Positions 22,214-22,604 of a stretch of DNA of 64,000 nucleotides are shown here, one piece after another. Position 1 is the first letter of the stretch. The number at the start of each line of letters is the position of its first letter. A program made the position numbers. The stretch is taken from assembly GCF_057098645.1 (NCBI RefSeq), contig NZ_CM169472.1. One strand, written 5' to 3'.

Positions 22214-22604
22214 CTATCCACGGGACGATCCCCTGCGTGACATTCACATATATGAAAAAATCGTGCCAGTTTTGCAACTCATTGATTTTTCGAGATGCGG
22301 CAAAAACGTGATGCACGATTTATAGGGCAATACCCTGAAGATGCACCATTCTGGGGCACCAAACTGGTGCGCTAAAATTGTGCACTCAACACAGTGATTA
22401 TTTAGCGTAAAACCTGATGAAAAAACAATCTTTATGTAACGATTGTGTGATGATGTGGATACAAAAAATTTACTTAATCAGCTGGGGATAGCAGATGGAT
22501 GCACTAAATAAGTGCGTTGAGGCGGGCTGCAAAACAAAACGGCCTCCTGTCAGGAAGCCGCTTTTATCGGGTACTAAAGTTCTGCACCATCAGCGATGGA
22601 TTTA

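What the first reader, a model, noticed from the sequence alone, without database searches (positions are those of the whole stretch)
22253..22371. glnHPQ nitrogen-regulated promoter: sigma54 element with weak -12 plus tandem overlapping NtrC sites
The minus strand reads TGGCAC-N5-TTTCA (a weak -12 element), and about 90 nt upstream are two overlapping near-consensus NtrC palindromes. This is the classic enhancer-dependent architecture.
Basis: partly seen in the sequence, partly recalled or inferred. Interest (0 to 1): 0.25.

Follow-up and report, generated by a model that had tools for sequence, protein, structure and literature searches.

The report
Known nitrogen-regulated glnHPQ promoter (glnHp2)

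Summary
The window is E. coli, and 22253-22371 (minus strand) lies in the dps-glnH intergenic region.

- **Sigma-54 element:** TGGCAC-N5-TTTCA sits at 22268-22253.
- **NtrC sites:** two 17-mers (1 and 2 mismatches to the consensus) sit at 22358-22342 and 22371-22355. They overlap by 4 bp.
- **Published numbering:** primer coordinates in PMC1865078 put glnHp2 +1 at 22241. The NtrC centres then fall at -109 and -122.
a perfect IHF core at 22287-22275 lies between enhancer and promoter.

Each motif alone is no rarer than chance in 64 kb. The combination occurs in 1 of 2000 shuffles. All elements are footprinted across 81 Enterobacteriaceae species. The "weak -12" T is present in 80 of 81 species and is never G.

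The literature holds an NtrC ChIP-seq peak at glnHPQ and sigma-54 ChIP at the Salmonella orthologue. This is already known, so interest is low.

Side observations:
- a conserved distal NtrC-like palindrome at 22516-22500, upstream of glnHp1;
- a conserved GTGCA half-site near -73;
- a nearly invariant 5' UTR.

The parts
22253..22268 (-). glnHp2 sigma-54 core promoter, TGGCAC-GATTT-TTTCA. The -24 element is consensus. The -12 element has T (22255) in place of the consensus G.
   Evidence: It is the best PWM hit in the window at 17.3 bits. TTTCA is invariant across 81 species, with position 14 being T in 80 and never G. The Salmonella orthologue is bound by sigma-54 in ChIP-chip (PMC3844500).
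22241..22241 (-). glnHp2 transcription start (+1) in the published numbering
   Evidence: Both primer ends of the '-289 to +63 of glnHp2' fragment in PMC1865078 map +1 to 22241. This is derived from published numbering and was not mapped here.
22275..22287 (-). IHF core AATCAATGAGTTG, preceded by an A-tract. It spans -46 to -34, between enhancer and promoter.
   Evidence: It is a perfect match to WATCAANNNNTTR. Other genera keep AA(A/T)CA(A/G)-N4-TTG. IHF-induced bending is needed for looping at glnHp2 according to PMC2709558. The K-12 SNP at 22281 falls in the N4.
22342..22358 (-). NtrC site A (promoter-proximal), TGCCCCAGAATGGTGCA, centre -109
   Evidence: One mismatch to the consensus. The distance to TGGCAC is 90 bp in 74 of 81 species. 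The right half-site has a majority fraction of 0.90 against 0.54 for the spacer.
22355..22371 (-). NtrC site B, CGCACCAGTTTGGTGCC, centre -122. It overlaps site A by 4 bp.
   Evidence: Two mismatches to the consensus. The left half-site has a majority fraction of 0.91. The K-12 SNP at 22363 is in the N3 spacer.
22368..22384 (-). Third overlapping NtrC-like 17-mer, TGCACAATTTTAGCGCA, centre -135. It is specific to Escherichia and its status is uncertain.
   Evidence: Three mismatches to the consensus. Given the shared CGCA, a site in this exact 13-bp register has a chance probability of about 4e-4. It is not conserved outside Escherichia, where there are mostly 6-9 mismatches and the majority fraction is 0.42.
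22500..22516 (-). Distal conserved NtrC-like palindrome D, CGCACTTATTTAGTGCA. Its centre is -267 of glnHp2, about -116 of glnHp1. It is a candidate additional NtrC site.
   Evidence: The family consensus is TGCACTTTTATGGTGCA. There are <=3 mismatches in 75 of 81 species and GCAC-N7-GTGC in 72 of 81. Half-sites score 0.97 and 0.93 against 0.64 for the spacer and 0.47 for the flank. The D-to-B distance is 144-147 bp in 78 of 81. Binding was not tested.
22312..22318 (-). Conserved T(T/C)GTGCA half-site, -77 to -71, between enhancer and IHF site. Function unknown; it may be a low-affinity NtrC half-site.
   Evidence: The majority fraction is 0.90 against 0.51 on both flanks.
22443..22464 (-). Degenerate CRP site of the upstream sigma-70 promoter glnHp1 (published 22-mer, centred -61.5 of glnHp1). 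By arithmetic the glnHp1 start is near 22392, so NtrC sites A and B lie about +22 to +51 of glnHp1.
   Evidence: The 22-mer ttgTATCCacatcaTCACAcaa from PMC1865078 matches exactly. The block is conserved at 0.92. The strict sigma-70 scan finds no promoter, which fits the published weak binding of E-sigma-70.
22199..22241 (-). glnHp2 5' UTR (43 nt) with the Shine-Dalgarno AAGGAAA. It is almost invariant across genera.
   Evidence: The majority fraction is 0.93-0.94. The hairpin GGGG-AUCG-UCCC is not unusually stable, with z = -0.39.
19936..22198 (-). glnH (22198-21452), glnP (21314-20655) and glnQ (20658-19936), the operon driven by the promoter
   Evidence: ORF list and RefSeq annotation of the matching region.
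22531..22564 (-). dps intrinsic terminator (hairpin plus T-run), the upstream boundary of the glnH control region
   Evidence: The fold gives -20.1 kcal/mol and z = -4.0. The dps stop codon is at 22604-22602.

Best explanation
This is glnHp2, the sigma-54-dependent, NtrC-activated, IHF-assisted promoter of the E. coli glutamine ABC-transporter operon glnHPQ.

The steps below follow the established mechanism for this class and are not re-shown here.
1. Under nitrogen limitation NtrB phosphorylates NtrC.
2. NtrC-P dimers occupy the two overlapping sites centred at -109 and -122 and oligomerise into an active ATPase.
3. IHF binds the core at -46 to -34 and bends the DNA sharply.
4. The bend delivers the NtrC oligomer to sigma-54 RNA polymerase sitting in a closed complex on TGGCAC-N5-TTTCA.
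5. ATP hydrolysis remodels sigma-54, the DNA opens, and transcription starts at 22241, 43 nt upstream of the glnH ATG.

The T in place of the -12 G makes polymerase binding weak. The promoter therefore depends on the correctly phased IHF bend and on NtrC bound in cis.

**Shown here:** the motifs, their exact spacing, agreement with published numbering, and purifying selection on every element, including the weak -12 T.

**Taken from literature:** sigma-54 and NtrC dependence, in vivo binding, and the role of IHF.

**Inferred:** the weakness of the -12 element is selected for rather than tolerated. Because sites A and B lie about +22 to +51 of the upstream sigma-70 promoter glnHp1, NtrC binding probably also hinders glnHp1 transcription.
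For: - **Locus identity:**
- **Motif coordinates:**
- **Published numbering:** it is reproduced from both primers, giving +1 at 22241 and NtrC centres at -109 and -122.
- **Joint architecture:** it appears in 1-4 of 2000 shuffles.
- **Sigma-54 PWM:** the site is the top hit in the window and within the range of bound sites, 17.3 bits against a minimum of 15.9.
- **Conservation:** 79 of 81 Enterobacteriaceae species carry the sigma-54 element, an NtrC site with <=3 mismatches and an IHF-like core. The enhancer-to-promoter distance is 90 bp in 74 of 81, and the -12 T is present in 80 of 81.
- **Footprint contrast:** half-sites score 0.90-0.97, spacers 0.54-0.65 and flanks 0.42-0.51.
- **Literature:** PMC1865078 (sigma-54 and NtrC-P dependence, the tandem glnHp1 and glnHp2), PMC4066584 (NtrC ChIP-seq peak 3 at glnHPQ, citing direct binding), PMC3844500 (sigma-54 ChIP and 7.1-fold rpoN dependence in Salmonella), PMC2709558 (IHF bend needed at glnHp2) and bioRxiv 10.1101/086108 (weak promoter, IHF-bound).
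Against: - Nothing contradicts the explanation.
- Each motif taken alone is within chance expectation for 64 kb.
- The strict IHF core is perfect only in Escherichia. Other genera have one mismatch (AAACAA), so IHF dependence elsewhere is inferred.
- With +1 at 22241 the GG and TC doublets sit at -26/-25 and -14/-13, one or two nt further from the start than the nominal -24/-12.
- The original footprinting papers (Claverie-Martin & Magasanik 1991; Carmona et al. 1997) were not held in the library. The figures -109 and -122 are therefore my arithmetic on a later paper's numbering, which agrees with my recollection of the original.
Confidence: 0.96

Rival explanations
1. The NtrC sites act mainly, or additionally, as an operator for the upstream sigma-70 promoter glnHp1. 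Sites A and B sit about +22 to +51 of the glnHp1 start, and the conserved distal palindrome D sits about -116. NtrC bound at both could bracket or loop out glnHp1 and switch the operon from glnHp1 to glnHp2 under nitrogen limitation. This would resemble NtrC repression of glnAp1. It is compatible with the main explanation and describes an extra role.
For: - The CRP 22-mer centred -61.5 of glnHp1 places the glnHp1 start near 22392, upstream of sites A and B.
- D is conserved with a dimer-site signature, and the D-to-B distance is 144-147 bp in 78 of 81 species.
- PMC3870243 states that the glnH promoter architecture is very similar to that of glnA.
Against: - No binding or expression data for D were found in the held literature.
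- In E. coli itself D has 4 mismatches to the 17-mer consensus.
- The constant D-to-B distance may simply reflect the conserved glnHp1 promoter lying between them.
- The NtrC ChIP-seq peak as listed sits nearer glnHp2 than D.
Confidence: 0.3
2. The motifs are chance matches in an AT-rich intergenic region, and glnHPQ is driven only by the sigma-70 promoter.
For: Each single motif is within chance expectation.
Against: - The joint arrangement appears in at most 4 of 2000 shuffles.
- Every element is footprinted across 81 species with fixed spacing.
- ChIP data for NtrC and sigma-54 have been published.
Confidence: 0.01
3. The sigma-54 promoter is real but is activated by an enhancer-binding protein other than NtrC.
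For: Sigma-54 promoters can be activated promiscuously. DctD250 activates glnHPQ in Salmonella (PMC3844500).
Against: - The upstream sites match the NtrC palindrome with 1 and 2 mismatches.
- NtrC ChIP-seq places a peak at glnHPQ.
- PMC1865078 states that the promoter is NtrC-P-dependent.
Confidence: 0.02

Closest known systems
E. coli K-12 glnHp2 (Nohno et al. 1986; Claverie-Martin & Magasanik 1991, cited in PMC4066584 and PMC1865078)
   Same: It is the same locus and the same sequence. 417 of 421 intergenic bases are identical to MG1655 and all specified motif bases are identical. The published numbering is reproduced.
   Different: There are four strain SNPs, at 22523, 22486, 22363 and 22281. 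Two fall in unconstrained N positions of the NtrC B site and the IHF core.
E. coli glnAp1/glnAp2 control region
   Same: Both have a sigma-70 promoter followed by a sigma-54 promoter, NtrC sites about 100-140 bp upstream of the second promoter, and CRP activating the first promoter while repressing the second (PMC1865078, PMC3870243).
   Different: - glnAp2 has a consensus -12 GC and needs no IHF (PMC2709558).
- Its two strong NtrC sites are separate, centred at -140 and -108, and not overlapping.
- In glnA the sites overlap the first promoter itself. Here they lie downstream of the glnHp1 start.
Klebsiella pneumoniae nifH / nifU and Pseudomonas putida Pu (IHF-assisted sigma-54 promoters)
   Same: An IHF site lies between the enhancer and a sigma-54 promoter, and the IHF bend is needed for productive looping (PMC2709558).
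   Different: The activators differ (NifA and XylR in place of NtrC). The enhancer sites are not overlapping palindromes 13 bp apart.
Salmonella Typhimurium glnH sigma-54 site (STM0830)
   Same: It is the orthologous promoter, TGGCATGATTTTTTCATT, with the same T at the -12 G position. It is bound by sigma-54 in ChIP-chip and shows 7.1-fold rpoN dependence.
   Different: It has C-to-T at position 6 of the -24 element, a variant seen in many genera.

Membership tests
Sigma-54 (RpoN) -24/-12 promoter | A conserved GG doublet (TGGCAC) and the C of the GC doublet (TTGCW) at the fixed spacing TGGCAC-N5-TTGCA | tested here: met
   TGGCAC-GATTT-TTTCA lies at 22268-22253. GG, the spacing and the C are present. 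The G of the GC doublet is T, a single deviation. The same deviation occurs in other sigma-54 ChIP-bound sites in Salmonella, for example potH and STM1665.
Sigma-54 (RpoN) -24/-12 promoter | PWM score within the range of experimentally bound intergenic sites | tested here: met
   The leave-glnH-out PWM from 28 Salmonella ChIP sites gives 17.3 bits, against a training range of 15.9-23.0. This is the top score in the window, but 23% of random 64-kb sequences reach it.
Sigma-54 (RpoN) -24/-12 promoter | rpoN-dependent transcription and sigma-54 occupancy in vivo | not testable with these tools
   This rests on literature only: PMC1865078 for E. coli, and PMC3844500 for the Salmonella orthologue with ChIP ratio 16 and 7.1-fold expression.
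NtrC (NRI)-dependent enhancer | Two or more sites matching TGCACCA-N3-TGGTGCA roughly 100-150 bp upstream of the sigma-54 promoter | tested here: met
   Site A has 1 mismatch (centre -109) and site B has 2 mismatches (centre -122). A joint occurrence with the sigma-54 element appears in 1 of 2000 shuffles.
NtrC (NRI)-dependent enhancer | Half-sites conserved and spacers free across related genomes, at a fixed distance from the promoter | tested here: met
   Half-sites score 0.90-0.91 and spacers 0.54-0.65. The distance is 90 bp in 74 of 81 species.
NtrC (NRI)-dependent enhancer | NtrC occupancy and glnG-dependent activation | not testable with these tools
   This rests on literature only: NtrC ChIP-seq peak 3 at glnHPQ, citing direct binding (PMC4066584), and NtrC-P dependence stated in PMC1865078.
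IHF-assisted sigma-54 promoter | An IHF core (WATCAANNNNTTR) between enhancer and promoter | tested here: met
   AATCAATGAGTTG lies at 22287-22275, or -46 to -34. A relaxed core is conserved in 79 of 81 species. The strict core is found only in Escherichia.
IHF-assisted sigma-54 promoter | IHF binding and stimulation of activation | not testable with these tools
   This rests on literature only: PMC2709558 and bioRxiv 10.1101/086108, both citing Claverie-Martin & Magasanik 1991. The original paper is not held.
Identity with the published E. coli glnHp2 | The same genomic locus and sequence as K-12, with published coordinates reproducible | tested here: met
   dps and glnH flank the region. 417 of 421 bases are identical to MG1655. 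The -289 and +63 primer ends both give +1 at 22241, and the published CRP 22-mer matches exactly.

The most novel reading that the evidence does not exclude
The glnH control region holds more NtrC-related information than the textbook two-site enhancer. A distal palindrome (22516-22500; family consensus TGCACTTTTATGGTGCA) is at least as well conserved across Enterobacteriaceae as the two known sites. It lies upstream of the sigma-70 promoter glnHp1, while sites A and B lie downstream of the glnHp1 start.

If NtrC binds it, NtrC oligomers bridging D and A/B could do one of two things. They could loop out and silence glnHp1 while firing glnHp2, which would be a promoter switch. Alternatively, D could supply a third DNA-bound dimer for hexamer assembly.

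Separately, the weak -12 T is never G in 81 species. This argues that sub-optimal polymerase binding is itself the selected trait.
Probability: 0.3. Interest if true: 0.35.

Novelty: already known. Interest (0 to 1): 0.1.

Why it matters
The main finding adds nothing new. glnHp2 has been a model IHF-assisted sigma-54 promoter since 1991.

The comparative data give two modest additions.
- **Weak -12 element.** The non-consensus T at the -12 position is fixed across the family, being T in 80 of 81 species and never G. This supports the view that weak closed-complex formation is functionally required, because it enforces dependence on the IHF bend and on cis-bound NtrC and prevents cross-activation. 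It is not simply tolerated.
- **Further conserved elements.** Three were not mentioned in the literature I could read: the distal palindrome D, a GTGCA half-site near -73, and a nearly invariant 5' UTR. If D binds NtrC, it would refine the model of how glnHp1 and glnHp2 are coordinated.

Tried and rejected
1. **Original papers.** I tried to read Claverie-Martin & Magasanik 1991, Carmona et al. 1997 and Reitzer & Schneider 2001. None is held. The supplement of PMC2709558 with the glnHp2 IHF mutants is not held either.
2. **Third overlapping NtrC-like site at -135 (22384-22368).** It is unlikely by chance in that register (about 4e-4). It is not conserved outside Escherichia, so I do not count it as part of the core enhancer.
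3. **RNA-structure explanation for the conserved 5' UTR.** The hairpin is no more stable than shuffles (z = -0.39). No Rfam family hits the region.
4. **MgrR pairing with the 5' UTR.** Full-length duplexfold gave an unrealistic end-to-end duplex. The local search found MgrR 51-60 pairing with glnH +19..+28 at -14.4 kcal/mol, but 8 of 100 shuffles do as well. It is kept only as a lead.
5. **CsrA idea for the two GGA motifs in the UTR.** A literature search gave nothing specific, so I dropped it.
6. **Strict sigma-70 consensus scan for glnHp1.** It gave 0 hits, which fits the published weak glnHp1. The same tool also missed the dps terminator on the minus strand, which folding confirms.
7. **Literature search for a description of the distal site.** Searches for glnHp1, glnHp2 and glnH+NtrC+IHF found none in the held papers.

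Full report
**Locus.** A 1.9-kb stretch around the finding matches 5421 of 5426 complete E. coli genomes. It is 99.9% identical to O145:H28 strains, and the annotated features under the match are glnH and dps. In K-12 MG1655 the gene order is ybiO-glnQ-glnP-glnH-dps-rhtA-yliM-ompX. On the window's minus strand dps ends at 22602 and is followed by a strong terminator hairpin and T-run (22564-22531; -20.1 kcal/mol, z = -4.0). The glnH ATG is at 22198. The finding lies in the 403-bp intergenic region between them.

**Observation.**
- TGGCAC (22268-22263), GATTT, TTTCA (22257-22253) has one mismatch to TGGCAC-N5-TTGCA. It is the only match with <=1 mismatch in the window.
- Two NtrC palindromes follow upstream: A = TGCCCCAGAATGGTGCA (22358-22342, 1 mismatch) and B = CGCACCAGTTTGGTGCC (22371-22355, 2 mismatches).
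- A and B overlap by 4 bp. They start 90 and 103 nt upstream of TGGCAC.
This is a perfect IHF core (WATCAANNNNTTR) preceded by an A-tract, and it lies between enhancer and promoter.

**Is it more than chance?** Not motif by motif.
- The sigma-54 pattern with <=1 mismatch is expected 2.2 times per window.
- NtrC-like 17-mers with <=3 mismatches are expected 4.2 times, and 4 were seen. Three of the four lie within 43 bp here.
- I built a sigma-54 PWM from the 28 other intergenic sigma-54 ChIP sites of Salmonella (PMC3844500 Table 3). It scores the site at 17.3 bits. That is the top score of the window and inside the training range (15.9-23.0), but 69 of 300 random 64-kb sequences reach it.
- The combination is what is rare. 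A sigma-54 match with at least one NtrC site (<=2 mismatches) 50-250 bp upstream on the same strand occurs in 4 of 2000 dinucleotide shuffles. With two or more sites it occurs in 1 of 2000.

**Agreement with the published promoter.**
- PMC1865078 describes a fusion fragment running "from -289 to +63 of glnHp2" and gives both primers. The two primer ends independently place +1 at window 22241.
- On that numbering the NtrC sites are centred at -109 and -122. This matches my recollection of Claverie-Martin & Magasanik 1991, whose text was not available.
- The IHF core spans -46 to -34. GG and TC lie at -26/-25 and -14/-13. The glnH ATG is at +44.
- The same paper's degenerate CRP 22-mer for the upstream sigma-70 promoter glnHp1 (centred at -61.5) matches exactly at 22464-22443. 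This puts the glnHp1 start near 22392, so NtrC sites A and B lie about +22 to +51 of glnHp1.
- A strict sigma-70 consensus scan finds nothing here. That fits the paper's statement that E-sigma-70 binds glnHp1 very weakly without CRP.
- The window differs from MG1655 at four of 421 positions: 22523, 22486, 22363 and 22281. The last two fall in the N3 of site B and the N4 of the IHF core. No specified motif base is changed.

**Experimental support in the literature.**
- NtrC ChIP-seq peak 3 in nitrogen-starved E. coli is assigned to glnHPQ, with "direct binding" referenced (PMC4066584).
- The listed peak coordinates (847261-847341) fit the promoter region only if they are in the older K-12 numbering, about 777 lower than NC_000913.3. 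That offset is my inference from memory.
- The Salmonella orthologue TGGCATGATTTTTTCATT is enriched 16-fold in sigma-54 ChIP-chip, and the operon is 7.1-fold rpoN-dependent (PMC3844500).
- An IHF-induced bend is needed for looping at glnHp2 (PMC2709558).
- glnHp is described as a weak promoter naturally bound by IHF and is not cross-activated in trans (bioRxiv 10.1101/086108).

**Comparative footprint.** A scan of one genome per species with GlnH returned 80 Enterobacteriaceae loci spanning many genera, including Escherichia, Citrobacter, Salmonella, Klebsiella, Enterobacter, Kluyvera, Kosakonia, Cedecea and Buttiauxella. I aligned 420 bp upstream of glnH.

| Element | Majority-base fraction |
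|---|---|
| TGGCAC | 0.95 |
| TTTCA | 1.00 |
| IHF tract plus core | 0.79 |
| Left half of site B | 0.91 |
| Right half of site A | 0.90 |
| NtrC spacers | 0.54-0.65 |
| Inter-element DNA | 0.42-0.57 |

The distance from site A to TGGCAC is 90 bp in 74 of 81 sequences. In all, 79 of 81 carry the sigma-54 element, an NtrC site with <=3 mismatches and an IHF-like core.

The base at the consensus G of the -12 GC doublet is T in 80 species, C in one and never G. All 28 other Salmonella sigma-54 sites have G there, and changing T to G would lift the PWM score to 23.1 bits. The "weak -12" is therefore real and is conserved. I read that conservation as selection for weak closed-complex formation, which is an inference.

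The strict IHF core is confined to Escherichia. Most genera have AAACAA-N4-TTG, one mismatch.

**Mechanism.** This is the standard model for the class and is not re-shown here.
1. Nitrogen limitation leads to NtrC-P.
2. NtrC-P dimers bind the overlapping sites and oligomerise into the active ATPase.
3. IHF bends the intervening DNA.
4. The activator contacts sigma-54 holoenzyme in its closed complex.
5. ATP hydrolysis drives open-complex formation and transcription of glnHPQ from 22241.

The weak -12 element makes the promoter rely on the IHF bend and on NtrC bound in cis. Because A and B lie within the glnHp1 transcribed leader, occupancy probably also impedes glnHp1. That point is inferred.

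**Things beyond the finding.**
- **(a) Third overlapping site.** A third NtrC-like 17-mer lies in the same 13-bp register (22384-22368, centre -135, 3 mismatches). It is improbable by chance (about 4e-4 given the shared CGCA) but is restricted to Escherichia.
- **(b) Distal palindrome D.** It lies at 22516-22500 (E. coli CGCACTTATTTAGTGCA; family consensus TGCACTTTTATGGTGCA).
  - It shows the signature of a dimer site: half-sites 0.97 and 0.93, spacer 0.64, flank 0.47.
  - GCAC-N7-GTGC is present in 72 of 81 species, against 53 for site A under a relaxed pattern (GC[AC]C-N7-GTGC) and 50 for site B.
  - It sits 144-147 bp upstream of B in 78 of 81 species.
  - Its centre is -267 of glnHp2, or about -116 of glnHp1.
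  - I found no mention of it in the held literature. Whether NtrC binds it is untested.
- **(c) Half-site.** T(T/C)GTGCA at 22318-22312 is conserved at 0.90 between unconserved flanks.
- **(d) 5' UTR.** The 43-nt UTR is nearly invariant (0.93-0.94). Its small hairpin is not unusually stable (z = -0.39) and no Rfam family matches it.
  - glnH is listed as an MgrR target common to TRIC-seq and RIL-seq (bioRxiv 10.1101/2025.09.11.675593).
  - MgrR nt 51-60 (UCUAUCCAUG) is complementary to glnH +19..+28, but the duplex energy is matched by 8 of 100 shuffles.

**Verdict.** The feature is the textbook glnHp2 promoter and is already known, so interest is low. The most novel reading not excluded is that the conserved distal palindrome is a functional NtrC site that, together with A and B, brackets glnHp1.

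Noticed in passing
window 22500-22516 (-): A distal NtrC-like palindrome lies upstream of glnHp1, at centre -267 of glnHp2. Across 81 Enterobacteriaceae species it is at least as well conserved as the two known NtrC sites, with GCAC-N7-GTGC in 72 of 81 and a variable spacer. I did not find it described in the held literature.
   Followed up: partly
window 22368-22384 (-): A third NtrC-like 17-mer (3 mismatches) sits in exact 13-bp register with sites A and B. It is improbable by chance (about 4e-4) but is present only in Escherichia.
   Followed up: yes
window 22312-22318 (-): A conserved T(T/C)GTGCA half-site at about -77 to -71 lies between the enhancer and the IHF site, flanked by unconserved DNA. 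Its function is unknown.
   Followed up: partly
window 22199-22241 (-): The glnH 5' UTR is almost invariant across genera (0.93-0.94) and contains GGGGATCG(T/C)CCC with a GATC. The hairpin is not unusually stable. glnH is a reported MgrR target, and MgrR nt 51-60 is complementary to +19..+28, but the pairing is not statistically convincing.
   Followed up: partly
window 22425-22446 (-): A conserved inverted repeat, ACAATC-N10-GATTGT, spans the right half of the CRP site and the -35 region of glnHp1. It may be a site for another regulator.
   Followed up: no
E. coli strain IAL7255, NZ_CM130730.1 (hit H18); corresponds to about window 22438: In one of 5421 genomes the match to the control region breaks at about 22438, and an 'integrase core domain-containing protein' is annotated there. 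This suggests a mobile-element insertion between the CRP site or D and the glnHp1 core.
   Followed up: no
window 63115-63193 (-), 11938-12008 (-), 29062-29104 (+): There are Rfam gathering-threshold hits for the RybB sRNA (104 bits), naRNA4/CssrE (78 bits) and ES036/CssrF (44 bits).
   Followed up: no
whole window; e.g. 1605-1620: Perfect IHF-core matches (WATCAANNNNTTR) are enriched, with 10 observed against 2.75 expected and 0 of 100 shuffles reaching 10. They include an overlapping palindromic pair at 1605-1620.
   Followed up: no
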